A stretch of DNA of 41,770 nt from Clostridia bacterium (GTDB lineage Bacteria > Bacillota > Clostridia > Christensenellales > QALW01). Location: the NCBI GenBank assembly GCA_045536015.1, contig JAZSMS010000111.1, positions 1-41,770 of the forward strand. The letters are read 5' to 3'. Of this stretch, positions 1,659 through 22,410 are shown in pieces. The notes beneath the pieces are model-generated. The model saw only the letters and a program-made list of their open reading frames with translations. It did not search any database and was not told the origin of the DNA. Every line of letters starts with the position of its first letter. Positions within the stretch are counted from its first letter, which is position 1. The position numbers and the translations under genes were made by a program.

Positions 1659-3440
1659 TTACTTCTTTTTGTTTAACGCAAGTTTTAAAACAAAAAGCGT
1701 ACCGATCATCAAAGCGATAGAAATCGGAAGAACAATAACGGCATTAGGAACAAAGCCTGCTAAAATATAGCTTACAAACGAAACGCCTGCAACCGTTAAC
1801 GCATACGGAAGCTGTGTTGAAACGTGGTTAATGTGGTCGCACTTTGCGCCTGCTGATGCCATAATAGTGGTATCAGAGATGGGCGAGCAGTGGTCACCGC
1901 AAACTGCACCTGCCATACATGCCGAAACTGCAACGATAGTAATATTTCCGTCCTGTGCGCCGAAAACTGAAAGCACGATAGGAATTAAAATACCAAACGT
2001 ACCCCACGAGGTTCCCGTTGCAAACGAAAGACCAACTGCAATTAAGAAGATAATAGCAGGAAGGAAGAATGCGAGCTGACCCGCCGAACCTTCGATAAGC
2101 TGCGAAATGAATATTTTTGCACCAAGTGAATCGGTTATAGTCTTTAACGTCCAAGCGCAAACAAGGATAAGTATTGCAGGTACCATAGCCTTAAAGCCTT
2201 CGGGAATTGCTTCCATGCAGTTTTTAAAGGTGATAACTCTGCGGCAGAGGTAGTAGATAACCGAGATAATAATGGTTATAAATGAGCCGAATACAAGACC
2301 TACCGAAGCGTCACTGTTTGAGAACGATTCGATAAAGTTCATATAGCTGTCGCTTGATGCATCAAAGAAGCCGCCCGAATAGATAAGACCAAATACGCAC
2401 GATATAATTAAGACAATAACGGGAAGAACAAGGTCTAAAACGCGTCCCTTGGGGTTTGCGTTTTCTTCAAGCTCTTCAAGCTGTTTCTCGCCCGAGGTAA
2501 AGATGTCGCCTGCAAGGGCGTTATCTTCGTGCTTTTTCATCGGGCCAAAGTCAAACTTGGTAATAGCAAGGAAGAACATCATTATGATAGTTAAAATAGC
2601 ATAGAAGTTAAACGGAATTGCTGAAACAAAAAGCGAAATACCGCTTTCGGCACCTGCGCCCTCGGCAAAGCCTGCAACTGCGGCTGCCCACGAAGAAATA
2701 GGAGCAATAATGCAGATAGGTGCGGCAGTAGCGTCGATTAAGTACGAAAGCTTTGCGCGCGAAACATTGTGTTTATCAGTTACGGGGCGCATTACCGAGC
2801 CAACTGTCAAGCAGTTAAAGTAGTCGTCAACAAAGATTAAAATACCAAGAACGACGGTGCAAATTTGTGCGCCAACACGGCTTTTAATATGCGTTTTTGC
2901 CCATCTTCCAAATGCAGCAGAGCCGCCTGTTTTGTTTATCATAGCAACTAAGGAACCTAACAAAACAAGGAATATTAAAATACCGATGTTGTACGAATCG
3001 GCAACGGTAGAAATAAAGCCGTCTTGAAAAACGTGGGTCATAGTTGTTTCAAGGTTAAAGCTTGAATAGATAAGGCCGCCTGATAAAATACCTATAAAGA
3101 GTGAAGAATAAACTTCCTTTGTTATAAGCGCAAGCACGATAGCGATAATTGGCGGAACAAGTGCCCAGAACGTTGCGTATGAGGGTGTTTCGCCCCTTAC
3201 GGTTGCAAGGGCCTTTTCGATGTTTTCGTCAAAATTTTCGTCTGCGGATAAATTGTCAGCGTATGCGTCAACGTATTCGCTTGCCGAATCGTAGTCCGAA
3301 AGGTCGTATTCGGTTTCACCAACAACAACTGTCTGTGGCTCAGCATTGTCGGCGGGCTCGCTCTGCGCAAAGGCAGAAACTGCAAATGACATAACAACCA
3401 TAACTATCATTGCAACGAGCAAGAGTGTCTTCTTTTTCAT
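1659..3440 (-). CDS. NhaC-family (Na+/H+ antiporter-like) membrane transporter, candidate lysine-responsive transporter
   Basis: 593 aa and polytopic, with an NhaC-like start of the membrane core 'FWALVPPIIAIVLALITKEVYSSLFIGILSG'. SD GGAG lies 7 nt before the ATG. A lysine riboswitch precedes it. About 90 extra N-terminal residues look like a signal peptide plus an acidic segment. Confidence 0.7.
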   Translation of the reverse strand: MKKKTLLLVAMIVMVVMSFAVSAFAQSEPADNAEPQTVVVGETEYDLSDYDSASEYVDAYADNLSADENFDENIEKALATVRGETPSYATFWALVPPIIAIVLALITKEVYSSLFIGILSGGLIYSSFNLETTMTHVFQDGFISTVADSYNIGILIFLVLLGSLVAMINKTGGSAAFGRWAKTHIKSRVGAQICTVVLGILIFVDDYFNCLTVGSVMRPVTDKHNVSRAKLSYLIDATAAPICIIAPISSWAAAVAGFAEGAGAESGISLFVSAIPFNFYAILTIIMMFFLAITKFDFGPMKKHEDNALAGDIFTSGEKQLEELEENANPKGRVLDLVLPVIVLIISCVFGLIYSGGFFDASSDSYMNFIESFSNSDASVGLVFGSFITIIISVIYYLCRRVITFKNCMEAIPEGFKAMVPAILILVCAWTLKTITDSLGAKIFISQLIEGSAGQLAFFLPAIIFLIAVGLSFATGTSWGTFGILIPIVLSVFGAQDGNITIVAVSACMAGAVCGDHCSPISDTTIMASAGAKCDHINHVSTQLPYALTVAGVSFVSYILAGFVPNAVIVLPISIALMIGTLFVLKLALNKKK

Positions 3441-3496: not shown

Positions 3497-3532
3497 GCAA
3501 ATTTCCCTATTAAAAAAGAAACTGCGTTTTAC

Positions 3533-3693
3533 GATATCGCTCCACTAATTAAGTGACAGTCCGATACATATTTTGTACCGCCCCAGCTGTTGTATTTCAA
3601 GGTAATAATACAACGCTTCGGCAAAAGCTCCTTTTGCAATAATGCCAATTTACCTAAAAACATTATGCTACTTTTAACTTTTGCGCCTATATC
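3533..3693 (-). promoter_or_regulatory. Lysine riboswitch (L-box) aptamer
   Basis: The minus-strand RNA carries L-box signature blocks in the correct order: GAUAUAGGCGCAAAAGUUAAAAGUAGC, then AAAAGGAGCUUUUGCCGAAGC, then GCUGGGGCGGUAC, then GGACUGUCAC, then GUGGAGCGAUAUC. The P1 helix closes with GAUAU/AUAUC. It aligns block by block with the recalled B. subtilis lysC leader. Confidence 0.85.
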
Positions 3694-3725
3694 TGCAAAA
3701 AACACTATGATTTTTTTATACACAA

Positions 3726-11916: not shown

Positions 11917-12123
11917 TATGATTTCCTCCAAAAAAATATTTTATTTTTTACTGTATTATTTTATACCAATATTTGTTTTTTAGCAAGCGAATAATTACTT
12001 TTATTTTTGCAAAATAATAAAAAAATTTTTAAAAAAATTTTTGTAGGCGTTATAATCGTTTAAAACGTCCCTAAAACAATGGGTTTTAAGTAAAAAGGCA
12101 ACGATTTTAACAAAAAGGGGTAC

Positions 12124-12178: not shown

Positions 12179-15100
12179 ATGTCGGTAACCTTATCTAAAC
12201 AAAATTCAAAATTTATGCTTGCGCTTGAAAATGCGCTTGATAAAACGGTGATTGAATTGCTTGAGTTTGAAAAAGCAGTTATTTCAGATTCGGGCAGCCA
12301 GTGGCAAATCTATTTTAATTCGGTTTGCCAGCTTGATGATGCAAAATATTCGGCTTTAAAGCAAGCAGTAAAAAAGATAGTTCCGCCCTTGGTAGAGGTG
12401 GAACTTTTTGTGCGCGTAGAAGCACCGACGCAAGCATTAGAAGAGCCCGACTTTGACGATGTTCCGCTTCCTGAAGAAGCGCCCGAGGAAAATGAAGAGC
12501 TTCCGCAAGAAGAAATTCCAACCGTGCTGGAGCAGGATACATTAACACCCGAGGAAAGATATAAAAGGCGAATGGAACAGCTTACGCGCGAAGCGGCAAA
12601 AAACGCAAAGCCCTCTGCAAAGCCGGCATCCAAAAAGCGCGGTATTAAGAGTGTTTCTGCTGACGGAATAGCACTTTACGGCAAAGATTTTTCACCTAAA
12701 AAGATAACGCCTATAAACGAAATTGACGATTTTACGCGCTTTGTTACAATAGAGGGCGACGTTATAGGCAGTGATATTATTACCTATAAATCAGGTAAGG
12801 GAATAATTTTTACCTTTAACGTAACCGACTACACCTCGTCGATAACCTGCAAACTCTTTGCGCTTTCTGAGCAGGCGGACGAACTTTTAGAAAAAATAAG
12901 CGGGCATATTATTGTTCAGGGTACTTGCTCGTTTGATACGTTTGCAAGCGAATTGACTATAAATCCCAAGGCAATAAAAAAAGCGCCCGCGCCAAAAGAG
13001 CAAACCGATAACGCACCGGTAAAGCGAGTAGAGCTGCACCTTCATACAAAAATGAGTCAGATGGACGGCGTGCTTGACGTTTCAAAGCTTTTAAAGCTTA
13101 TGAAAAAGTACGGACACGATACCGTTGCACTTACCGACCACGGTGTTGTTCAGGCGTTTCCTGATATGGAAGCGGCAATAGCCAAGCAAAAGATGAATGA
13201 CGTAAAAATAATTTTCGGTACCGAGGGCTATTTGCTTAACGACGACCCTGTGCTTGAGCTTGGTGAAAATAAAAAACTGCGCGAGCTAAAATATTGCGTA
13301 TATTCAATTTCTACAACGGGCGAAAGCGTTTTAACAGATAGCATCATCGAGATAGGTGCCTGTATTTTTGATAACGGTGCTTTGCAAGAGCAAACGTTTT
13401 ATTCGCTAGTTAATCCGCACCGCGATATTGATGAGTCACAGTACGAAAATATTTCTAACGCCGCGCTTTCGGCTGCACCTGACATTGATGCAGTAATAAA
13501 GGCGTTCTGGCAGTTTGCGCAGGGTTGTGTATTAGTTTCGCACGAAAGTACAAAAACTATGCCGTTTATACTTAAAGCCGGTGACGATGCAAAAGTAAAA
13601 ACAGAGAGCGCGTCGGTAGATACGCTCAGAGTTTCGCGCGAGCTTATTTCTACTATTAAAAGCGGAAAGTTTAATAAAGTTTGCGACGCGCTTGATATTA
13701 AAACGGGTGAGATTGAAAACGCGCTTAAAAAAGCCGAGCTTACGGCGGTTATATGGCGCAAATTGCTAGAGCATCTCGAATCGTTTAACGTTTTTACGGT
13801 AGACGAATTTAATAAAAAATTAGACAGCGATGCAGGTAGTCGCTATCACATAATAATAATTGCAAAAAACAAGGTGGGACTTAAAAATCTTTACACGCTT
13901 GTTACCGAGTCACACCTTCATCATCTTCGCCGCAAGCGTCCGCAAATACCGCGCTCGTTATTAAAAAAGCATCGCGAAGGGCTTATAATTGCCTCGGCCT
14001 GCGAAGCGGGTGAACTTTTTAGGGCGATAGTTTCGGGAGCAAATGACGAAAAATTAAAGCAGATAGCATCGTTTTACGATTATCTTGAGGTTCAGCCACT
14101 TGGTAATAATGAATTTATGCTTCGCGAAGGCTTGGTTTCTTCGCGCGAGCAGCTTATTGACCTTAACAAAAAGGTGATTTGGCTTGGCGAAGAGCTTAAT
14201 ATTCCCGTTATAGCAACGGGCGACGTGCATTATCTTCTAAAGCGCGATGCAATTTACCGAAGCATTATTCAGTGTGCCGAGGGTTATTCCGATGCCGATA
14301 AGCAAGCCCCTCTTTATTACAGAACTACCGAGGAGATGCTTGATGAGTTTTACTATCTTGACGAGAAAAAGAGATACGAGATAGTTGTTGAAAATACTCG
14401 TGCGCTTGCTGCCCAGTGCGAAAAAATGGAATCGTTCCCACGCGACAGACTTTATACGCCCACGATGGAAAATGCCGAGGAAGACCTTAGACAAATGTGC
14501 TTTGAAAAGGCGTATAAAATGTACGGAAATCCGCTGCCTGAAATTGTTCAAAAGCGCCTTGATAAAGAGATAAATTCTATTATAAATAACGGCTACGCAG
14601 TGCTTTATCTAATTGCTCACAAGGTCGTTAAAAAGTCTAACTCCGATGGCTATATGGTAGGCTCTCGAGGAAGTGTAGGCTCTTCTTTTGCCGCAACAAT
14701 GGCGGATATAACCGAGGTTAACCCTCTTACACCGCACTACTTGTGTCCCGAGTGTCAGTATAGTGATTTTGATATTGATCTGTCGCAATACGACTGCGGA
14801 ATTGACCTTCCGCACAAAAAATGCCCCAAATGCTCTCACGAGCTTTTGCGCCTTGGCTTTAACATTCCTTTTGAAGTGTTTATGGGCTTTAACGGCGATA
14901 AGGTTCCGGATATTGACCTTAACTTCTCGGGTGTTTATCAGCCCGAGGTACATAAGTATATTGAAGAATTGTTTGGTGAAAAGTACGTGTTCCGCGCAGG
15001 AACTATCGGCGGTGTTGCCGATAAAACTGCAATAGGCTACACTAAAAAATACTGCGAGGAATATTCGCTTGCCCGTCCGCGAAAGGCAGAACTTGAACGT

Positions 15101-16336
15101 TTAGCCTCTGGCTGCATTGACGTTAAGCGCACTACCGGTCAACACGCAGGCGGTGTAGTTATTGTTCCTAAAGAATACGATATAAACGAGTTTACTCCCT
15201 TGCAGTATCCTGCAAACGATCCCGAAGCAGGCGTAATAACCACGCACTTTACGTTTAACTCACTTCACGATACTTTGCTTAAAGCCGATATTTTAGGTCA
15301 CGACGACCCGACTGTAATACGTATGCTTGAAGATTTAACGGGCGTTAATGCAAAAGAAGTTCCGCTTGACGATCCTGGCGTTATGAGCTTGTTCTTGTCA
15401 ACCAAGGCGCTTGGAATTTCCGAAGAAGAGCTTGGCACAAAGACGGGTACGTTTGGAATTCCTGAATTCGGTACGGCTTTTACTAGAAAAATGCTTGAAA
15501 AAACCAAGCCAAAGACATTCTCGGACCTTGTAAAGATTTCGGGACTTTCACACGGAACTGACGTTTGGACCAACAATGCCGAAAGACTTATTGACGAAAA
15601 TATTGTACCTATCAGCAAGTGTATCTGTACGCGTGAGGATATTATGAATAACCTTATCCAGTACGGCGTGGAGCAGTTTGCGGCGTTTGATACGATGGAA
15701 AAGGTAAGAAAGGGTAAGGGTATACCCGAGAAGTATTTAGAAGAAATTCGTGCACACGGTATTCCTGAGTGGTTTATTGAATCTTGTAACCTGATCAAGT
15801 ATATGTTCCCTAAAGCTCACGCCGCGGCATACGTTACAACTGCACTTCGTATTGCGTGGTTTAAGGTCTATAAGCCGCATCAGTACTATGCAACGTACTT
15901 CTCGGTGCGCGCAGACGATTTTGAGGTAAGCCTTGCACAAAAGGATAAAGAAGAAATCAAGCAGCTTATTGCCCAGTACCGAGCTATTCCCAAGCCTAAC
16001 CCGCGCGAAAAGGGCATAATAGTAATGCTTGAGATAGTGCTTGAAATGAAACTGCGCGGTATAGAGTTTACAAATATCGACATTTATCTTTCGGATGCAA
16101 CAAAGTTTACTATAACCGAGGATAATTTGATTCGTCCCCCGCTTAATGCAGTTCCACAGCTTGGCGAAACGGCTGCACAGTCGATAGTGGATGCGCGAAA
16201 AATTGAGCCATTTAAATCGCAGGACGATTTGCTTTTGCGTACAAAGCTTTCTAACACGCTTATAAAATCGCTTGAAGATTGCGGATGTTTAAAAAATCTT
16301 CCTAAAAGTCAGCAGATAAGCATTTTTGACCTTTAA
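12179..16336 (+). CDS. polC: DNA polymerase III alpha subunit, PolC type (exonuclease motifs degenerate)
   Basis: 1385 aa, colinear with recalled B. subtilis PolC. Matches include PHP 'VELHLHTKMSQMDG', the embedded exonuclease-like insert, the zinc module 'CPECQ...CPKC', 'GSRGSVGSS', 'DIDLNFSG', 'KRTTGQHAGG', 'ILGHDDPTVIRML' and 'KYMFPKAHAAAY'. Confidence 0.95.
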   Translation: MSVTLSKQNSKFMLALENALDKTVIELLEFEKAVISDSGSQWQIYFNSVCQLDDAKYSALKQAVKKIVPPLVEVELFVRVEAPTQALEEPDFDDVPLPEEAPEENEELPQEEIPTVLEQDTLTPEERYKRRMEQLTREAAKNAKPSAKPASKKRGIKSVSADGIALYGKDFSPKKITPINEIDDFTRFVTIEGDVIGSDIITYKSGKGIIFTFNVTDYTSSITCKLFALSEQADELLEKISGHIIVQGTCSFDTFASELTINPKAIKKAPAPKEQTDNAPVKRVELHLHTKMSQMDGVLDVSKLLKLMKKYGHDTVALTDHGVVQAFPDMEAAIAKQKMNDVKIIFGTEGYLLNDDPVLELGENKKLRELKYCVYSISTTGESVLTDSIIEIGACIFDNGALQEQTFYSLVNPHRDIDESQYENISNAALSAAPDIDAVIKAFWQFAQGCVLVSHESTKTMPFILKAGDDAKVKTESASVDTLRVSRELISTIKSGKFNKVCDALDIKTGEIENALKKAELTAVIWRKLLEHLESFNVFTVDEFNKKLDSDAGSRYHIIIIAKNKVGLKNLYTLVTESHLHHLRRKRPQIPRSLLKKHREGLIIASACEAGELFRAIVSGANDEKLKQIASFYDYLEVQPLGNNEFMLREGLVSSREQLIDLNKKVIWLGEELNIPVIATGDVHYLLKRDAIYRSIIQCAEGYSDADKQAPLYYRTTEEMLDEFYYLDEKKRYEIVVENTRALAAQCEKMESFPRDRLYTPTMENAEEDLRQMCFEKAYKMYGNPLPEIVQKRLDKEINSIINNGYAVLYLIAHKVVKKSNSDGYMVGSRGSVGSSFAATMADITEVNPLTPHYLCPECQYSDFDIDLSQYDCGIDLPHKKCPKCSHELLRLGFNIPFEVFMGFNGDKVPDIDLNFSGVYQPEVHKYIEELFGEKYVFRAGTIGGVADKTAIGYTKKYCEEYSLARPRKAELERLASGCIDVKRTTGQHAGGVVIVPKEYDINEFTPLQYPANDPEAGVITTHFTFNSLHDTLLKADILGHDDPTVIRMLEDLTGVNAKEVPLDDPGVMSLFLSTKALGISEEELGTKTGTFGIPEFGTAFTRKMLEKTKPKTFSDLVKISGLSHGTDVWTNNAERLIDENIVPISKCICTREDIMNNLIQYGVEQFAAFDTMEKVRKGKGIPEKYLEEIRAHGIPEWFIESCNLIKYMFPKAHAAAYVTTALRIAWFKVYKPHQYYATYFSVRADDFEVSLAQKDKEEIKQLIAQYRAIPKPNPREKGIIVMLEIVLEMKLRGIEFTNIDIYLSDATKFTITEDNLIRPPLNAVPQLGETAAQSIVDARKIEPFKSQDDLLLRTKLSNTLIKSLEDCGCLKNLPKSQQISIFDL

Positions 16337-16462: not shown

Positions 16463-16912
16463 ATGTCAGTTGAAGAACTTGCTGCACGCGCGGCGTATCC
16501 CAAAATAGAAGAGCTTGGATTTGAGCCTGCCGACGTTGAATTTGTTAAAGAAGACGGCGATATGTGCTTAAAGTTTTATATCTGCTCGCCAACAGGTGTT
16601 GGCATTGAAGATTGTGAGGCTGTTTCTAAAGCAATCGATCCGATTGATGAAGAAGCTGATCCAACACAAGGCAAGCCCTATTGCCTTTGCGTAAGCTCAT
16701 GGGGCGACAGACCGTTAAAGAATGATGCCGACTTTAAGCGTAACTTAAATTTAGAGGTTGACGTGCGCCTTAAAAAAGCGGTAAGCGGCAAAAAGAAAAG
16801 ATTTGCAGGAACGCTTTTGGACTTTGATGAAGAAAAAATTACCGTGTTGGTTCAAGGGACCAAAACGGTTTTTGAAAAAGAAAATATTGATACGGTAAGA
16901 CCGTATTTTTAA
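16463..16912 (+). CDS. rimP: Ribosome maturation factor RimP
   Basis: 149 aa, in the conserved position directly upstream of nusA, with a RimP-like N-terminus 'IEELGFEPADVEFVKEDGDMCLKFYI'. Confidence 0.85.
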   Translation: MSVEELAARAAYPKIEELGFEPADVEFVKEDGDMCLKFYICSPTGVGIEDCEAVSKAIDPIDEEADPTQGKPYCLCVSSWGDRPLKNDADFKRNLNLEVDVRLKKAVSGKKKRFAGTLLDFDEEKITVLVQGTKTVFEKENIDTVRPYF

Positions 16913-16929
16913 GAAACGGAGAAAAAATA

Positions 16930-17991
16930 ATGAGCTTAGAATTACTTGAAGCAATAAAAATGCTTGAAAAAGAAAAGGGAATGGATGCTGAGTCGCTTTT
17001 TGAGGCTGTTGAGCTTGCGATGGTTTCGGCATATAAAAAAGCACGTCCTTGGGGTGATGCGGCTACTATCGTTGCGCATATGAACAGAGAAACCGGAGAG
17101 GTTCGTTGCTATATTGTTAAAACAGTAGTAGAAGAGGTTTACGATAACCTTTTAGAAATTTCACTTGAGGATGCACAAGAAATTAATCCCAATGCGCAAA
17201 TTGACGATACCGTTGAGGTTGATGATACACCAGAATCTTACGGAAGAATCGGTGCGCAGACTGCACGTCAGGTTATAACACAAAGAATCAGAGAGGCGGA
17301 AAAAGGTCAGACGTACAGTGAGTATGCCGACAAGCAGGGTGAAATTATGACGGGCGTAGTTCAGAGAATAGAAAACGGCTACGTTTATTTGGAGCTTGGC
17401 AAGCTTGAGGGCGTTATGCCTCCCAAGGAGCAGCCCGCAGGCGAAAAGTACGCACCCGGTCAGCGCATTAAGGTTTACGTTTCTGATGTAAAAAAGGTTC
17501 AGTACGGTACAAACATTATCGTTTCGCGTACTCATCCCCAGCTTATCAAGCGTCTTTTCGAGCTTGAGGTTCCCGAAATTGCTCAGGGTACGGTTGTTAT
17601 TAAGTCGATTGCGCGTGATGCAGGCTCAAGAACAAAAATTGCCGTTTACAGCGAAGACGAAAACGTTGATCCGCTCGGCGCATGCGTTGGACCTAAGGGA
17701 ACGCGCGTTGCAAACATTGTTGGAGAAATAAACGACGAAAAAATCGATATAATTAAATGGAGCGAGGATCCTGTTACCTATATAGCAAACGCGCTTAGTC
17801 CTTCAAAGGTTATAATGGTGCGTATTGATTCTGATGGCGAAAAGAAAAAGGCTACCGCAGTAGTTCCTGATAATCAGCTTTCGCTTGCTATCGGTAAAAG
17901 AGGACAAAACGCTTCGCTTACTGCGCGCTTAACGGCTTGGAATATTGATATTAAATCAGAAAGTCAGGTTGGAGAAGCCGCAAATGACTAA
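16930..17991 (+). CDS. nusA: Transcription termination/antitermination factor NusA
   Basis: N-terminal 'LEAIKMLEKEKGMD', an S1 segment 'GEIMTGVVQRIENGYVYLELG' and KH repeats 'DPLGACVGPKGTRV' and 'LAIGKRGQNASL'. Confidence 0.95.
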   Translation: MSLELLEAIKMLEKEKGMDAESLFEAVELAMVSAYKKARPWGDAATIVAHMNRETGEVRCYIVKTVVEEVYDNLLEISLEDAQEINPNAQIDDTVEVDDTPESYGRIGAQTARQVITQRIREAEKGQTYSEYADKQGEIMTGVVQRIENGYVYLELGKLEGVMPPKEQPAGEKYAPGQRIKVYVSDVKKVQYGTNIIVSRTHPQLIKRLFELEVPEIAQGTVVIKSIARDAGSRTKIAVYSEDENVDPLGACVGPKGTRVANIVGEINDEKIDIIKWSEDPVTYIANALSPSKVIMVRIDSDGEKKKATAVVPDNQLSLAIGKRGQNASLTARLTAWNIDIKSESQVGEAAND

Positions 17992-18250
17992 AACCAAAAA
18001 AACGCCTATGCGTATGTGTGTCGGCTGCCGAGAAATGAAGCCCAAGCAAGAGCTTATAAGGGTGCTTCGCACTCCTGAGGGCGAAATTAAGGCAGACGCT
18101 TCTAACAAGGCATCGGGTAGGGGCGCGTATATTTGCCCTAATGCCGATTGTTTAAAAAAGAGCATTAAAACAAACGCCTTATCGCGTTCGCTTGACGTGC
18201 CGATTGGTCAAGAAATATATGATCGTCTTGAAAAGGAAATAAATGGATAA
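17984..18250 (+). CDS. ylxR: YlxR/RnpM family (DUF448) RNA-binding protein
   Basis: 'PMRMCVGCREMKPKQELIRV' and 'GRGAYICP' motifs. Start set at the ATG overlapping the nusA stop (ATGACTAA) rather than the tracked upstream ATG at 17945. Confidence 0.85.
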   Translation: MTKTKKTPMRMCVGCREMKPKQELIRVLRTPEGEIKADASNKASGRGAYICPNADCLKKSIKTNALSRSLDVPIGQEIYDRLEKEING

Positions 18251-18578
18251 AATACAAGCAAATGCAAAAATAAAAGCATATTTGGGCTTTGCGGCAAAAA
18301 CGCGAAGCATTGCTTCGGGCGCCGATGCAGTTGAGCAAGCAATTCGCGCAGGCAAGGCAAAGCTTGTGCTGATTTGCAGCCAGGCATCCAGCGCTACAAT
18401 CGAAAGATTTTCGTTTGCATCAAGCACGCATTCAGTTAAATGTGTGTTAATAGAAGACGAGGCTTTAGGGCAGGCAATAGGCAAGCCCGAGAGGAAAATA
18501 GTTTGTATTTTGGATAATAAATTTGCAACTGCAATAATTAACGAGATAAACCTTATTGATTTGGGGGACAAAAAATGA
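18243..18578 (+). CDS. ylxQ: L7Ae-family ribosomal-protein-like K-turn binding protein YlxQ
   Basis: 111 aa, with '[31 protein letters not shown]' typical of L7Ae/YlxQ. It holds the conserved slot between ylxR and infB. Overlapping stop/start codons on both sides. Confidence 0.8.
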
Positions 18579-21109
18579 GTAAAGCATCAGAAATTTATAC
18601 CTCAGGCAGAGAAATGCTTGAAAAAATTTCAAAGGTAAGCAAGAGCTTGGAGGAGCAAAAAGCATCGCTTAAAAAATTAAGTGACGAAATTGCTCAAAAA
18701 GAGCTTGCACAAAAACAAGAGCAGCAAAGAAAAGAGCAGGAACAGGCTAGACTTGAGTACGAGAAAAAACGTGCTGAGGAGGCTGCTGCCGAAATAGCTG
18801 CATTAGAGGCTGAAGAGAAAAAGGCTGCAAAAACACAGGAAAAACCCGCAAACGTGCAGGAAAAGCCTGTGGAAAAAGCACAGCCTGATGAAAAAACACA
18901 GACTGCCCAAAAGACCGAGCAAACCAAAAAGCAGGGTGAGCAGAGAGATAAAAAATCTCCCGAAGAGCGCGGCTTCCGCAGACCTAACAGTACGTATCAG
19001 AATTCGCGCAAGGATACTTACGAAAACCGTCAGAATGACAGAAGACAGCCTCAGGGTGATAGAAAACAACCTGCTCAACAACAAAACCAGGGCGAAAGAA
19101 AGCAACAAACACGTCCTCAAAGAGTCCCCGAGGTTGATATTCCTACGGGAGAAAAGGGCCACGTAAGCAATTACGATCCTAATAAAAAGAATTACCGCAA
19201 AAAGCAGGAAGCAGAGCAAACGCCCAAGAATAACCGTAAAGAAAATTCGCGTCGCAACAATAACGTTGCTATTGACGAGGATGAATTCTTCCGCGTACGC
19301 AAGCCCAAGAATAAGAAGGAGCCTAAAAAGGTTATTGAGCCTATCGTTATCGAAAATGCCGTTATGACAACCGAGATGATAGGTATTAAGGATCTTTCCG
19401 AAAAGCTTGGTAAGCCTGCGGCAGATATCGTTAAAAAGCTTTTCTTAATGGGCGTAATGGCTACCGTTAACCAGGAGATCGACTACGAAACCGCATTTAT
19501 GGTAGCAAGTGAATACGGTATCGAGCTTGAACAAAAGCTTGCAAAGACGTTTGAGGATACGCTTATCGACGTTTCGGATGATTCGGACCAAAGCGGCGAA
19601 GACTACGTAACGCGTCCCCCCGTTGTTACCGTTATGGGTCACGTTGACCACGGTAAAACTTCGTTGCTTGACGCTATTCGTCATGCAAACGTTACTATGG
19701 GCGAAGCAGGCGGAATTACACAGCACATTGGTGCATACCAGGTAGAATATAATAAAAAGAAAATTACGTTTATTGATACCCCCGGCCACGAAGCGTTTAC
19801 TTCGATGCGTGCACGCGGTGCGCAGTCAACCGATATTGCAATATTGGTTGTTGCAGCCGACGACGGTGTTATGCCCCAGACTATCGAGGCTATAAACCAC
19901 GCAAAAGCCGCCGAGGTTCCGATAATCGTTGCAATAAACAAAATGGATAAGCCCACGGCAGACCCCGACAGAGTTAAAACCGAGCTTACTCAGCACGGCA
20001 TCGTGCCTGAAGAATGGGGCGGCGATAATATGATCGTTCCCGTTTCGGCATATACCAAAGAGGGTATTGATTCGCTTCTTGAAAGCATTTTACTTATTGC
20101 CGAGGTCGAAGATTATAAGGCAAATCCCAAAACAATGGCAAAGGGTATTATTATTGAGGCAAAGCTTGATAAGGGCCGCGGTCCCGTTGCTTCGGTATTA
20201 ATTCAGAATGGTACGCTTCATATCGGTGATACTATAGTTGCAGGTACCGTTTTTGGTAGAGTTCGCGCTATGATGAACGATAAGGGCGAACGCTTAAAGG
20301 AAGCTCCTCCGTCAACGCCGGTTGAGGTGCTTGGCTTTAACGACGTTCCCGATGCAGGCGATAAGCTCTATGCAACCGAGGACGACCGTCTTTCGCGACA
20401 GGTTGCCGAGGAACGTCAGGCAAAAATTAAGGCAGAGCAGGCAAAGGCAAGAGCAAAGGCATCACTTGACGATTTGTTTGCGCAAATTCAGGAAGGCGAA
20501 ATGAAACAGCTTAACCTTATTATCAAGGCTGACGTTCAAGGCAGCGTTGAGGCTGTTAAGCAGGCTATGGAAAAGCTTTCCAATGAAGAGGTTAAGGTTG
20601 TAGTCGTTCACGGTGCAGTTGGTGCTATTGCTAACTCCGACGTTGTTTTAGCGCAGGCTTCAAACGCTATTATTATCGGCTTTAACGTTCGCCCCGATTC
20701 AACAGCGAGAGCACTTGCCGAAAAAGAAAAGATTGATATCCGCCTCTACCGCGTTATTTATAATGCTATTGAAGAGATAGAAGCGGCTATGAAGGGTATG
20801 CTTGCGCCTGAATTCAGAGAAGCACTTTTAGGTCACGCACAGGTTCGTCAGACCTTTAAGGTTCCCGGTCACGGCACCGTTGCGGGCTGCTACGTTACTG
20901 ACGGTAAAATTACACGCTCGTGCAAGTTAAGACTTCTTCGTGACAATATTGTTATTCACGAGGGCGAGGTTGATTCGCTTCGACGCTTTAAAGATGACGT
21001 TAAAGAGGTTGCAACCGGTTACGAATGCGGTATCGGCATCGTTGGCTATAACGATATTAAAGAAAACGACGTTATTGAAGCGTTTATTATGGAAGAAATA
21101 GCAAGATAA
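18575..21109 (+). CDS. infB: Translation initiation factor IF-2
   Basis: Low-complexity K/E/Q-rich N-terminus, then the GTPase motifs '[14 protein letters not shown]', 'DTPGHEAF' and 'NKMD', followed by C-terminal IF-2 domains. Confidence 0.97.
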
Positions 21110-21118
21110 GGAGATTTT

Positions 21119-21472
21119 ATGCAATATAAACGTTCTGACAGACTTGCGCTTGAAATTCAGCGCACGCTTGCAGATATTATCCGCAATGAGCTTAACGACC
21201 CAAGGATAAGCAGTCTTGCAAGCATAATTAAGGTAGAACTTTCTAATGATCTGCAGTATTGTAAGGTTTATGTAACGGTGTACGGCACAGATGAAGAGGT
21301 TAAAAATACCTTTGAAGGCTTAGAAAAGGCAAAGGGCTTTATTAAGCGCTTGTTGTTTGAAAAAATAAAACTTCGTAAGGCACCCGAGCTTACGTTTGTA
21401 AAGGACGATTCGATAGCCTATAGCGTACACATAAGTGAAATTCTTAATAAAATTAACGAGGAAGAAAAATGA
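21119..21472 (+). CDS. rbfA: Ribosome-binding factor A
   Basis: 117 aa, with 'RSDRLALEIQRTLADIIRNELNDPR' and 'APELTFVKDDS' typical of RbfA. SD AGGAG is present. Confidence 0.9.
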   Translation: MQYKRSDRLALEIQRTLADIIRNELNDPRISSLASIIKVELSNDLQYCKVYVTVYGTDEEVKNTFEGLEKAKGFIKRLLFEKIKLRKAPELTFVKDDSIAYSVHISEILNKINEEEK

Positions 21473-22410
21473 AGAAGTTAGTCGAATTTATCAAGCAAGG
21501 AAACGCCTTTGCCATCATTTCGCATACTTCACCCGACGGCGACACTATGGGAAGTGCCGCCGCACTTATTTATGCTCTGCATAAGCTGGGCAAAAAGGCA
21601 AAATGGCTTTGTGACGGCGAAATTCCGCATGATTTTATGAATTTAGAGCAGATAGCCTCGCTTGTTAAAAAGAATGATTTAAAAAAGTATGACAGTATTA
21701 TCTGTGTTGATGCCGCCGACAAGGACAGGCTTGGCAAAAATAAGCAGATGATTGAAAACTTTCCGCGCGTTGCGCAGATTGACCACCACGTAAGCAACAC
21801 TAATTATGCTTCTATAAACGTTGTGCGCGACCGTAATGCCTGCGCATTTGCGGTTTTAGAGCTTATAGACGCACTTGAAGTAGAGGTAGACACCGATATT
21901 GCGCGTGCTTTATATGTTGGTATTTGTACTGATACGGGAAGACTTTCTTACAGCACAACCGTAGAGCAGGACGTGCTTGATACTGCAAGATTGTATAAAT
22001 ATAACCTTAGACCTGATTTAATTGTTGCAACACTTTTTAAAACAAAAACTCTTGCCGCAACAAAGCTTTCGGGCAGAGCAATAGAACATCTTGCAACCGC
22101 TTTTGACGGCAAGGTTGCCTATACTTATCTTGACAGTGAAGATTTTTCTGCCTGCAATGCAACTAATGCCGACTCGGAAGGCATAATCGAAACCTGCCGT
22201 AACGTTGAAGGTGCGCTTATAGCGTTTTTTATCCGTCAGACGTTTGATGGATACAAGGTTTCTATGCGCGGAACACCGGGATACAGTGTGCTTGAAATCT
22301 GCCAAAAATTTTCCGGCGGCGGTCACGTGCTTGCGGCGGGATGCACAATAGATAAAAAGCGTGACGACGTTATAAAAGCCGTGCTTGAGGAGATAGAAAA
22401 GATAATATGA
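21469..22410 (+). CDS. nrnA: DHH-family phosphoesterase, NrnA-type oligoribonuclease/pAp phosphatase
   Basis: Motifs 'HTSPDGDTMGS', 'DAADKDR', 'QIDHHVSN' and DHHA1 'GGGHVLAAG'. ATGA overlap with rbfA. Confidence 0.85.
   Translation: MKKLVEFIKQGNAFAIISHTSPDGDTMGSAAALIYALHKLGKKAKWLCDGEIPHDFMNLEQIASLVKKNDLKKYDSIICVDAADKDRLGKNKQMIENFPRVAQIDHHVSNTNYASINVVRDRNACAFAVLELIDALEVEVDTDIARALYVGICTDTGRLSYSTTVEQDVLDTARLYKYNLRPDLIVATLFKTKTLAATKLSGRAIEHLATAFDGKVAYTYLDSEDFSACNATNADSEGIIETCRNVEGALIAFFIRQTFDGYKVSMRGTPGYSVLEICQKFSGGGHVLAAGCTIDKKRDDVIKAVLEEIEKII

What the first reader, a model, noticed from the sequence alone, without database searches (positions are those of the whole stretch)
13283..13760. PolC replicase with every DEDDh proofreading residue substituted while PHP metal-ligand motifs look complete
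In the segment aligning with the PolC 3'-5' exonuclease insert, all three motifs are changed.
- Exo I reads 'CVYSISTTG' where FDxETTG is expected (Asp->S376, Glu->S378; nt 13304-13312).
- Exo II reads 'VSHESTKTMPF' where AHNAxFDxxF is expected (Asn->E456, Asp->T460).
- Exo III reads 'IENALKKAELTA' where HRAxxDAxxTA is expected (His->E513, Asp->K518).
Scaffold residues around the motifs (TTG, IIEIGA, NPHR, VDTL) are retained and the frame is uninterrupted. This therefore looks like a folded but catalytically dead domain, not a deletion or a frameshift. The PHP motifs all appear intact: 'ELHLHT', 'LTDHG', 'FGTEGY', 'RYHIII', 'SACEAGE' and 'ATGDVHY' (a full DxH). That raises two possibilities. 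Proofreading may have moved to the PHP domain, as established for mycobacterial DnaE1, or it may be supplied in trans. I cannot tell from one window whether this is lineage-wide.
Basis: partly seen in the sequence, partly recalled or inferred. Interest (0 to 1): 0.7.

Follow-up and report, generated by a model that had tools for sequence, protein, structure and literature searches.

The report
Replicative PolC with dead proofreading domain
The main DNA-copying enzyme (PolC) of a whole lineage of uncultured gut Clostridia keeps its built-in proofreading domain as a folded, conserved but catalytically dead module, while a second, metal-based nuclease site (PHP) in the same protein stays intact and probably does the editing.

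Summary
Window 12179-16336 (+) encodes a 1385-aa PolC in the canonical polC-rimP-nusA-ylxR-infB slot. All five DEDDh residues of its DnaQ-type insert are replaced: D->S376, E->S378, D->T460, H->E513, D->K518.

It is not an error or a pseudogene.
- The same loss is seen in all 28 protein clusters of a monophyletic clade and in 20 GTDB species-representative MAGs (gut/rumen Clostridia).
- The live-exo sister lineage sits in the same syntenic slot.
- The dead insert is predicted to keep the DnaQ fold (pLDDT 92; TM 0.88 to the PolC exo domain of 9qpc) and is under purifying selection (dN/dS about 0.10).

Every clade member keeps the nine PHP metal ligands (HHDHEHCDH) and the polymerase Asp triad; every complete one keeps the clamp motif.

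The most likely mechanism is editing by the PHP site in cis. This is inferred, not shown. It rests on literature: exo-deleted PolCs with intact PHP exist in Clostridia/Negativicutes, and a PHP-ligand mutation in C. thermocellum PolC is a 30-fold mutator.

I could not search the rest of the genome for dnaE1 or a stand-alone dnaQ. This is a new variant of a known kind and of moderate interest.

The parts
12179..16336 (+). polC, PolC-type DNA polymerase III alpha subunit, 1385 aa, uninterrupted
   Evidence: NCBIfam PolC equivalogs NF001688 (1569.7 bits, cutoff 873) and TIGR01405 (1434 bits). Pfam PHP, RNase_T (weak), DNA_pol3_alpha, finger and HHH_6. 1077 bits to the solved PolC 9qpc.
13025..13264 (+). 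PHP domain, N-terminal part (res 283-362), with ligands H287, H289, D296, H321, E349
   Evidence: Columns read HHDHE in the window and in all 28 clade members. Codons checked. dN/dS 0.031.
13274..13813 (+). DnaQ-like (DEDDh-fold) insert, res 366-545: a conserved pseudo-exonuclease
   Evidence: AF2 pLDDT 91.9. Foldseek TM 0.88, rmsd 1.7 A to the exo domain of 9qpc, and hits to DinG, epsilon and RNase T. 0/5 catalytic residues. dN/dS 0.098. 56% mean identity within the clade.
13295..13321 (+). Exo I remnant CVYSISTTG (live consensus VVFDIETTG): D->S376, E->S378
   Evidence: The TTG scaffold is kept.
13535..13567 (+). Exo II remnant VSHESTKTMPF (live VAHNAxFDxxF): N->E456, F->K459, D->T460
   Evidence: The base-stacking Phe and the catalytic Asp are lost in the whole clade.
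13712..13747 (+). Exo III remnant IENALKKAELTA (live HHRAxxDAEATA): H->E513, R->N514, D->K518
13634..13753 (+). Most constrained patch of the dead domain, res 486-525 (clade consensus SREIVPNIKSGKFNKVCDAL...LKEAEITGVI)
   Evidence: Column conservation is 0.87-0.95 in the dead clade against 0.59-0.68 in live PolCs for res 486-505, and 0.84 against 0.68 for res 516-525. Invariant columns are listed.
13829..14473 (+). PHP domain, C-terminal part (res 551-765), with ligands H557, C608, D682, H684
   Evidence: dN/dS 0.043. C608 corresponds to G. kaustophilus C670 and C. thermocellum C669.
14483..16048 (+). Pol3 core (palm/thumb/fingers, res 769-1290), with catalytic D911, D913, D1037 and the CxxC...CxxC zinc module
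   Evidence: Pfam DNA_pol3_alpha 4.7e-58 and finger 6.7e-20. DDD in all clade members. dN/dS 0.023.
16058..16312 (+). (HhH)2 duplex-binding domain
   Evidence: Pfam HHH_6, 4.8e-14, res 1294-1378.
16313..16327 (+). C-terminal beta-clamp-binding motif QISIF
   Evidence: C-terminus ...KSQQISIFDL. QQIS[LF]F is conserved in every clade PolC read to its C-terminus; the truncated L014 cannot be scored. Compare QIELF at the C-terminus of Acidaminococcus PolC.
16463..21109 (+). Downstream rimP, nusA, ylxR, (L7Ae), infB: the conserved operon context that marks the primary polC locus
   Evidence: ORFs. Pfam YlxR and IF-2. The same gene order flanks P0002 (dead) and P0030 (live sister).

Best explanation
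This is the orthologous, still-functional replicative PolC of a family-level lineage of uncultured gut/rumen Clostridia. Its DnaQ-type proofreading insert was inactivated once, at the base of the lineage, by substitution of all five DEDDh residues and of the substrate-contacting Phe and Arg.

Shown here:
- The insert is retained as a folded pseudo-exonuclease under purifying selection.
- Constraint inside it has moved from the former active site to a helix-loop-helix surface (res 486-525).

Inferred:
- The insert is kept for a structural or docking role inside the PHP barrel into which it is inserted.
- 3'-5' editing of PolC errors is carried out in cis by the intact trinuclear-metal PHP site (H287, H289, D296, H321, E349, H557, C608, D682, H684), as in mycobacterial DnaE1 and Thermus Pol III alpha.
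- Clostridial PolCs normally carry both nucleases, and that redundancy is what allowed the DnaQ site to decay.
For: Identity and orthology:
- PolC equivalog at 1570 bits.
- The same polC-rimP-nusA-ylxR-L7Ae-infB-rbfA-nrnA-truB-ribF order is found for the window, for dead P0002 and for live sister P0030.

Single loss:
- 28/28 clade clusters and 20/20 scorable GTDB species representatives have 0/5 DEDDh residues. 92/92 outgroups have 5/5.
- The clade is monophyletic in 50/50 bootstraps on non-exo columns.

Retained fold and constraint:
- pLDDT 91.9; TM 0.88 and 1.7 A to the 9qpc exo domain.
- dN/dS is 0.098 for the insert, against 0.02-0.04 for core and PHP and 0.155 for the NTD.
- Exo identity is lower than in live pairs at matched core identity (0.55 against 0.65-0.73), which indicates relaxed but not neutral evolution.
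- Patch 486-525 is more conserved than in live PolCs.

The polymerase is still a working replicase:
- Asp triad, clamp motif, and core dN/dS of 0.023.

PHP as editor:
- 9/9 ligands in every clade member.
- PHP is relatively more conserved in the dead clade than in live lineages at matched core identity: 0.78 vs 0.68, 0.82 vs 0.73, 0.84 vs 0.79, 0.89 vs 0.86.
- Literature: PolCs with the exo insert deleted but PHP 9/9 exist only in Clostridia/Negativicutes (PMC3919608).
- Literature: Clostridia usually carry three 'active' proofreaders, including the PolC PHP (PMC12926913).
Against: - No biochemical evidence exists that any PolC PHP domain is an exonuclease. The C669Y mutator could act by destabilising the protein or the neighbouring exo insert.
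- Intact PHP ligands are the default in clostridial PolCs, so they do not by themselves show a take-over.
- The higher relative PHP conservation comes from non-independent pairs within one clade and could be a lineage effect.
- The rest of the genome could not be read, so a DnaE1 PHP or a stand-alone DnaQ acting in trans is not excluded.
- dS is about 0.8-1.0 and close to saturation, so the dN/dS values are approximate.
- The reason for keeping the dead domain is inferred only from conservation patterns.
Confidence: 0.55

Rival explanations
1. Editing is supplied in trans. Mismatched termini left by PolC are removed by the PHP exonuclease of the co-resident DnaE1, or by a stand-alone DnaQ-like protein. 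The conserved surface of the dead domain (res 486-525) might serve as the docking site.
For: - Clostridia typically pair PolC with a DnaE1 that has a perfect PHP site (PMC3919608; PMC12926913).
- Trans-proofreading between the two replicases is documented in B. subtilis, as cited in PMC12926913.
- Bacterial proteomes carry on average more than 3 stand-alone DnaQ homologs.
- A clade-specific, hyper-conserved surface on a catalytically dead domain suggests a binding function.
Against: - No DnaQ-like ORF other than the PolC insert, and no second C-family polymerase, occurs in the 41.8-kb window or in about 355 kb around polC in the 23 fetched loci, 21 of them from clade genomes. This covers only a small part of each genome.
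- Trans editing at a processive leading-strand polymerase would be kinetically costly.
Confidence: 0.2
2. There is no compensation. The lineage replicates with a proofreading-poor PolC and tolerates or exploits a raised mutation rate, relying on mismatch repair. The dead domain is kept only because excising it would disturb the PHP barrel.
For: - All catalytic and substrate-contact residues of the only experimentally validated PolC proofreader are gone.
- Several otherwise near-invariant palm residues next to the polymerase active site are switched in the whole clade (D1025T, L1036A, P990A, D895N). This could reflect retuned intrinsic selectivity.
Against: - The state has persisted through deep divergence: at least 20 species, core identity down to about 0.70-0.75.
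- Purifying selection on housekeeping genes looks normal (whole-gene dN/dS 0.07).
- Nothing unusual was seen in the window's base composition, about 36-45% GC per 2-kb window.
- The PHP ligands are invariant, which is hard to explain if the site were idle. They could, however, be purely structural, as argued for E. coli PHP.
Confidence: 0.13
3. PolC has been demoted in this lineage. DnaE1 (PHP-proofread) does bulk replication and PolC serves a specialised or lower-fidelity role, so its proofreader became dispensable.
For: Timinskas and Venclovas raised this possibility for PolC+DnaE1 systems. They noted that all PolCs lacking the exonuclease are clostridial and that some Clostridia have only DnaE1 (PMC3919608).
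Against: - The PolC core is the most constrained part of the protein (dN/dS 0.023; 83% identity across the clade).
- The clamp motif, Zn module, Asp triad and canonical operon position are all kept.
- Nothing suggests accessory status.
Confidence: 0.07
4. The finding is an artefact: a sequencing or assembly error, a decaying pseudogene, or misalignment of the motifs.
For: None was found.
Against: - The frame is uninterrupted and contains no Ns.
- The identical state occurs in 28 protein clusters from independent assemblies and in 20 genomes.
- D->S and E->S each need at least 2 nucleotide changes.
- Three alignment methods agree.
- dN/dS is far below 1.
Confidence: 0.01

Closest known systems
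Exo-less PolC of Clostridia/Negativicutes (e.g. Acidaminococcus fermentans YP_003399045, 1191 aa; Timinskas & Venclovas 2014, PMC3919608)
   Same: It is a PolC-type replicase without a functional DnaQ proofreader. It has a PHP signature of HHDHEHCDH (9/9) and a C-terminal clamp motif, and it is found in the PolC+DnaE1 part of Firmicutes.
   Different: In those proteins the roughly 200-aa insert is physically deleted (architecture NTD-OB-PHP-Pol3-HhH, about 1190 aa). Here the insert is full-length (1385-aa protein), folded, under purifying selection, and carries a hyper-conserved surface patch.
Canonical PolC (B. subtilis, G. kaustophilus 3f2b, E. faecium 9qpc)
   Same: It shares the domain order, polymerase Asp triad, Zn module, (HhH)2, clamp motif and operon context. 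The window protein is 45-56% identical to live clostridial PolCs.
   Different: All five DEDDh residues, plus the Exo II Phe and the Exo III Arg, are substituted. The laboratory exo- mutant used for 9qpc changes only D431 and E433, whereas nature changed every catalytic position here.
PHP-proofreading replicases: M. tuberculosis DnaE1 (5lew; PMC5636811) and Thermus Pol III alpha
   Same: The complete nine-residue PHP metal-ligand set is present in a C-family replicase that has no active DEDDh partner in cis.
   Different: Those are DnaE1-type enzymes without any DnaQ insert, and their PHP exonuclease activity has been demonstrated. For PolC it is only inferred, the nearest evidence being the C. 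thermocellum C669Y mutator.
Polymerases with retained inactive DnaQ-like domains (many Pol I orthologs, PolA2, bacterial PolB2; PMC12926913)
   Same: A DnaQ-fold domain is kept after loss of its catalytic carboxylates.
   Different: Those are repair/TLS or accessory polymerases of families A and B. [quoted passage not shown] This lineage is the opposite case, in an essential C-family replicase.

Membership tests
PolC-type DNA polymerase III alpha subunit | Full-length match to curated PolC equivalog models above their cutoffs | tested here: met
   NF001688 scores 1569.7 bits (cutoff 873). TIGR01405 scores 1434 bits (cutoff 1043).
PolC-type DNA polymerase III alpha subunit | Domain order NTD-OB-PHP[insert]-Pol3-(HhH)2, with the insert between PHP ligands E and H | tested here: met
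   Pfam coordinates. The insert (res 366-545) lies between E349 and H557.
PolC-type DNA polymerase III alpha subunit | Polymerase catalytic Asp triad and C-terminal beta-clamp motif | tested here: met
   D911, D913 and D1037 are present, and the C-terminus carries QISIF.
PolC-type DNA polymerase III alpha subunit | Primary-locus synteny (polC-rimP-nusA-infB), shared with orthologs | tested here: met
DEDDh (DnaQ-like) 3'-5' exonuclease, catalytic member | DnaQ/RNase T fold | tested here: met
   AF2 pLDDT 91.9. Foldseek TM 0.88 to the 9qpc exo domain and 0.76-0.81 to epsilon, DinG and Cas2-DEDDh DnaQ domains. This is a predicted structure, not a solved one.
DEDDh (DnaQ-like) 3'-5' exonuclease, catalytic member | Exo I Asp and Glu (DxE) | tested here: not met
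   S376 and S378 in the window; S/A/T/C and R/K/S/T across the clade.
DEDDh (DnaQ-like) 3'-5' exonuclease, catalytic member | Exo II Asp (NxxxD) | tested here: not met
   T460 in the window; mostly T or S in the clade (also N, A, K). The preceding Phe is also lost.
DEDDh (DnaQ-like) 3'-5' exonuclease, catalytic member | Exo III His and Asp (Hx4D) | tested here: not met
   E513 and K518 in the window. In the clade the His column is variable (T most often, also E, S, N, F, D, Q) and the Asp column is E in 25/28.
PHP-type proofreading exonuclease (as in Mtb DnaE1 / Tth Pol III alpha) | Nine-residue metal-ligand signature HHDHEH[C/H]DH | tested here: met
   HHDHEHCDH in the window, in 28/28 clade clusters and in all scorable clade loci.
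PHP-type proofreading exonuclease (as in Mtb DnaE1 / Tth Pol III alpha) | Metal-dependent 3'-5' exonuclease activity on mismatched primer termini | not testable with these tools
   This needs biochemistry. The nearest evidence is genetic and comes from another organism (C. thermocellum PolC C669Y).
Exo-less PolC variant (Timinskas & Venclovas 2014) | Absence of the Exo insertion in the PHP domain (protein about 1190 aa) | tested here: not met
   The insert of about 180 aa is present and folded, and the protein is 1385 aa. Acidaminococcus PolC is 1191 aa.
Exo-less PolC variant (Timinskas & Venclovas 2014) | Co-occurrence with DnaE1 carrying an intact PHP site | not testable with these tools
   Only about 10 kb on each side of polC could be fetched in clade genomes, and no dnaE lies in those loci.

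The most novel reading that the evidence does not exclude
The dead DnaQ insert is not a mere relic. It has been repurposed as a non-catalytic module. Its hyper-conserved surface (res 486-525, SREIVPNIKSGKFNKVCDAL...LKEAEITGVI) would mediate a new interaction, for example recruiting a trans-acting editor or DnaE1, or routing the frayed primer end to the PHP metal centre. This lineage would then be a natural case in which an essential C-family replicase swapped proofreading chemistry (DEDDh to PHP) while keeping the old domain as an adaptor.
Probability: 0.2. Interest if true: 0.75.

Novelty: new variant of a known kind. Interest (0 to 1): 0.55.

Why it matters
PolC is the essential leading-strand replicase of Firmicutes and an antibiotic target, and its DEDDh insert is the only PolC proofreader shown experimentally.

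A recent survey of more than 3000 complete genomes concluded that in Pol III alpha subunits the PHP site decays but the DnaQ proofreader does not (PMC12926913). This uncultured gut lineage is a clean counter-example: DnaQ is dead in every member and PHP is invariant.

It gives a natural, evolutionarily validated construct for testing three things:
- whether a PolC PHP domain is a genuine proofreading exonuclease, which has been an open question since the G. kaustophilus structure;
- what, if anything, a DnaQ fold contributes to PolC apart from catalysis;
- how fidelity is maintained in PolC+DnaE1 replisomes, which are essentially uncharacterised.

It also shows that Pfam-based 'Exo absent' calls can hide retained pseudo-domains. 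Several clade members have no PF00929 hit.

Tried and rejected
1. Profile search of the dead-domain alignment (A1) against the 50%-identity representative library. The top score was only 147 bits and the hits were almost all DEDHD. The dead clade appears to fall in clusters represented by live PolCs, so this gave no information on breadth or intermediates. A few odd signatures belonged to fragments or to multi-DnaQ-domain proteins.

2. Cluster metadata for taxonomy. It returned only 'Clostridia/Clostridiales/Firmicutes bacterium' labels. The GTDB family could not be named, and NCBI labels on the 20 genomes are inconsistent (Clostridia, Oscillospiraceae, Selenomonadales).

3. Search for an in-trans exonuclease or a second polymerase. 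Pfam scans of all window ORFs of at least 120 aa and HMM scans of six-frame ORFs of the window and 23 loci, 397 kb in all, found none. This covers only the polC neighbourhood.

4. nrnA (DHH/DHHA1, 21469-22410) was considered as a nuclease candidate and rejected. It is a standard member of the infB-rbfA-nrnA-truB operon and is also present next to the live sister polC.

5. The paralog hypothesis (dead copy plus live copy in one genome) was rejected for the locus. The live relatives P0030/L022 occupy the same syntenic slot in other genomes, and the tree places them outside the clade.

6. A new catalytic constellation in the dead pocket was considered. The conserved polar residues that remain (E391, H455, D481, T482) are scaffold residues also conserved in live domains, so I found no sign of one.

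7. The ARAGORN tRNA-Ala (99 nt, 11973-12071) upstream of polC was rejected as a likely false positive. The region is AT-rich intergenic DNA and Rfam gives no tRNA hit.

8. Literature searches for a naturally inactive exonuclease domain retained in PolC found nothing.
Full report
**What is there**

The finding lies inside a single uninterrupted ORF, window 12179-16336 (+), encoding a 1385-aa protein.
- It matches the curated PolC equivalog models far above their cutoffs: NF001688 at 1569.7 bits and TIGR01405 at 1434 bits.
- Pfam sees PHP, DNA_pol3_alpha, the finger domain and HHH_6. It sees RNase_T only weakly (34 bits), over residues 379-508, which lie between the first and last exonuclease motifs.
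- The gene is followed by rimP, nusA, ylxR and infB, then nrnA, truB, ribF and rny. This is the canonical context of the primary polC in Firmicutes.
- Sporulation genes (spoVA, spoIID) and about 41% GC fit a clostridial organism.

**Check of the observation**

Three independent alignments put these residues in the DEDDh columns:
- phmmer against the full-length E. faecium PolC structure 9qpc;
- MAFFT of 60 and of 120 homologs;
- an HMM alignment of 270 proteins.

All 92 non-clade PolCs among the 120 best homologs read D-E-D-H-D at these columns. The Exo II Phe, the Exo III Arg and a conserved Lys at position 396 are also replaced. The nine PHP ligands are all present: H287, H289, D296, H321, E349, H557, C608, D682 and H684.

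**Is it lineage-wide, and is it an artefact?**

A search of 5.8 billion proteins returned a discrete group, P0001-P0028, at 60-91% identity. It is followed by a gap to P0029-P0033 at 54-56% and then to the bulk of clostridial PolCs at about 47-50%.
- Every one of the 28 has 0/5 canonical DEDDh residues. The typical signature is S-R-T/S-x-E; the window and its nearest relative read S-S/T-T/N-E-K.
- Every one has the full PHP signature HHDHEHCDH.
- On an NJ tree built from 900 non-exo columns, the 28 form a clade in 50/50 bootstraps, with the live-exo P0029 as sister.
- A scan of one genome per GTDB species, using clade-specific peptides of the dead domain, found 20 species representatives. All are uncultured MAGs from human, sheep and other gut or rumen samples.
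- All 20 PolCs that could be scored show the dead exo, PHP 9/9 and the polymerase Asp triad; the 19 that reach their C-terminus also show a QQIS[LF]F clamp motif.
- The live sister P0030 sits in the same polC-rimP-nusA-ylxR-L7Ae-infB-rbfA-nrnA-truB-ribF slot as the dead P0002 and the window. The dead gene is therefore the ortholog of the replicative polC and not a spare paralog.

Assembly error, frameshift and pseudogene are excluded.

**State of the dead domain**

An AlphaFold2 model built from 23 clade sequences is confident (pLDDT 91.9, pTM 0.89). It superposes on the exonuclease domain of the solved PolC 9qpc at TM 0.88 and 1.7 A, and on epsilon, DinG-N and RNase T.

Nei-Gojobori dN/dS between the window and the 91%-identical L021 gives:

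| Region | dN/dS |
|---|---|
| Dead insert | 0.098 |
| PHP halves | 0.031 and 0.043 |
| Pol3 core | 0.023 |
| NTD/OB | 0.155 |

dS is about 0.8-1.0, so these values are approximate.

At matched core identity the insert is more diverged than live inserts: 0.54 against 0.65 in the 0.80-0.85 bin and 0.59 against 0.73 in the 0.85-0.90 bin. There was also a burst of change on the stem, where dead-versus-sister exo identity is 0.31. The domain is therefore relaxed but clearly not neutral.

Constraint has been redistributed.
- The former active-site columns are variable.
- Residues 486-505 (consensus SREIVPNIKSGKFNKVCDAL) are 0.87-0.95 conserved, against 0.59-0.68 in live PolCs.
- Residues 516-525 (consensus LKEAEITGVI) are 0.84 conserved, against 0.68 in live PolCs.

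This suggests a retained or new structural or interaction role. That reading is inference.

**Mechanism**

Three things are shown: the polymerase is intact and highly constrained, the DnaQ site cannot bind its two metals, and the PHP trinuclear-metal ligand set is invariant.

What is inferred is that PHP does the editing in cis. Four lines support the inference.
1. PolCs whose exo insert is deleted outright, but whose PHP is 9/9, exist only in Clostridia and Negativicutes, the PolC+DnaE1 systems. An example is Acidaminococcus fermentans PolC, 1191 aa, HHDHEHCDH (PMC3919608).
2. A 2026 survey finds that Clostridia typically carry three 'active' proofreaders: the PHP of PolC, the PHP of DnaE1 and the DnaQ of PolC. 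That is a redundancy which would permit loss of one (PMC12926913).
3. In C. thermocellum, the PolC C669Y mutation changes the PHP cysteine ligand (equivalent to G. kaustophilus C670 and window C608). [quoted passage not shown]
4. At matched core divergence, the PHP domain is relatively more conserved in the dead clade than in live lineages: 0.78 against 0.68, 0.82 against 0.73, 0.84 against 0.79 and 0.89 against 0.86.

The caveats are as follows.
- No PolC PHP has been shown biochemically to be an exonuclease.
- The C669Y effect could be structural.
- Intact PHP ligands are the clostridial default (91 of 92 outgroups).
- The conservation comparison uses non-independent pairs.

**Rivals**

- *Trans editing* by the DnaE1 PHP or by a stand-alone DnaQ-like protein cannot be excluded. 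I could read only the 41.8-kb window and about 10 kb on each side of polC in related genomes. Within that 397 kb, the only DnaQ-like ORFs and the only C-family polymerases are the PolCs themselves. No window ORF of at least 120 aa is an exonuclease candidate.
- *A tolerated low-fidelity state* is possible. It sits poorly with persistence of the state across at least 20 species and with invariant PHP ligands.
- *Demotion of PolC* in favour of DnaE1, an idea raised by Timinskas and Venclovas, is contradicted by the very strong constraint on the core, the clamp motif and the operon position.

**Comparison with what is known**

Functionally this resembles the exo-less clostridial and Negativicute PolCs and the PHP-proofreading DnaE1 of mycobacteria.

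It is a bona fide PolC, since all defining features tested were met. It is not a catalytic DEDDh member, since three of four defining features were tested and not met. It is not an 'Exo-less' PolC in the architectural sense, since the insert is present.

[quoted passage not shown] This lineage is known only from MAGs and so was outside that complete-genome data set. It is the reverse case. Three full-text searches found no report of a naturally dead but retained DnaQ domain in PolC.

I therefore classify it as a new variant of a known kind.

**Verdict**

- The proofreading route (PHP in cis against in trans) remains open.
- Interest is moderate (0.55). The lineage is a clean natural experiment on an open question, namely whether PolC PHP is a proofreader, and a counter-example to a recent generalisation. 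The broader phenomenon, PolC without DnaQ function in Clostridia, has been known since 2013.

Noticed in passing
window 3527-3699 (-): A lysine riboswitch aptamer (RF00168, 94 bits, full length) lies directly upstream of the Na+/H+ antiporter-family (NhaC-like) gene at 1659-3440 (-). This probably marks a lysine-regulated transporter.
   Followed up: no
window 11973-12071 (+): ARAGORN calls a 99-nt 'tRNA-Ala(tgc)' in the AT-rich gap-polC intergenic region. Rfam gives no tRNA hit and the sequence is mostly A/T runs. It is most likely a false positive.
   Followed up: partly
window polC res 895, 990, 1025, 1036, 1102, 1190 (nt ~14861-15748): Six positions in the Pol3 core are at least 90% invariant in live PolCs but are switched to a different fixed residue in the whole dead-exo clade. 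They include HFDF->HFTF (D1025T), KLDILGHDD->KADILGHDD (L1036A, next to catalytic D1037) and GQHPGG->GQHAGG (P990A). These may reflect co-adaptation of the polymerase site to the loss of DnaQ editing.
   Followed up: no
window polC res 378, 513, 518 (nt 13310-13732): Charge pattern in the dead pocket. Most clade members have R (or K) at the Exo I Glu column and E at the Exo III Asp column, which could form a salt bridge filling the former metal site. The window and P0002 instead have S/T at 378, with E513 and K518. This looks like a charge swap within the sub-lineage.
   Followed up: no
proteins P0121, P0122, P0123, P0165, P0194, P0207 (representative library hits): Several proteins carry two to four tandem DnaQ-like domains, some with non-canonical signatures (DEDED, DQSHD, AKYQ-). 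Some are large (1045-1631 aa). They are not PolCs of the dead clade.
   Followed up: no
P0002-P0005, P0011-P0013, P0015, P0024, P0025: Ten of the 28 clade clusters have no precomputed PF00929 hit although the insert is present. Domain-architecture surveys that rely on Pfam hits would score them as 'Exo absent'.
   Followed up: partly
window 12179-13024 (polC res ~85-125): An acidic, proline-rich, low-complexity linker (EEPDFDDVPLPEEAPEENEELPQEEIP) sits in the PolC N-terminal region. The NTD/OB region carries several clade-specific indels and is the fastest-evolving part of the protein (dN/dS 0.155).
   Followed up: no
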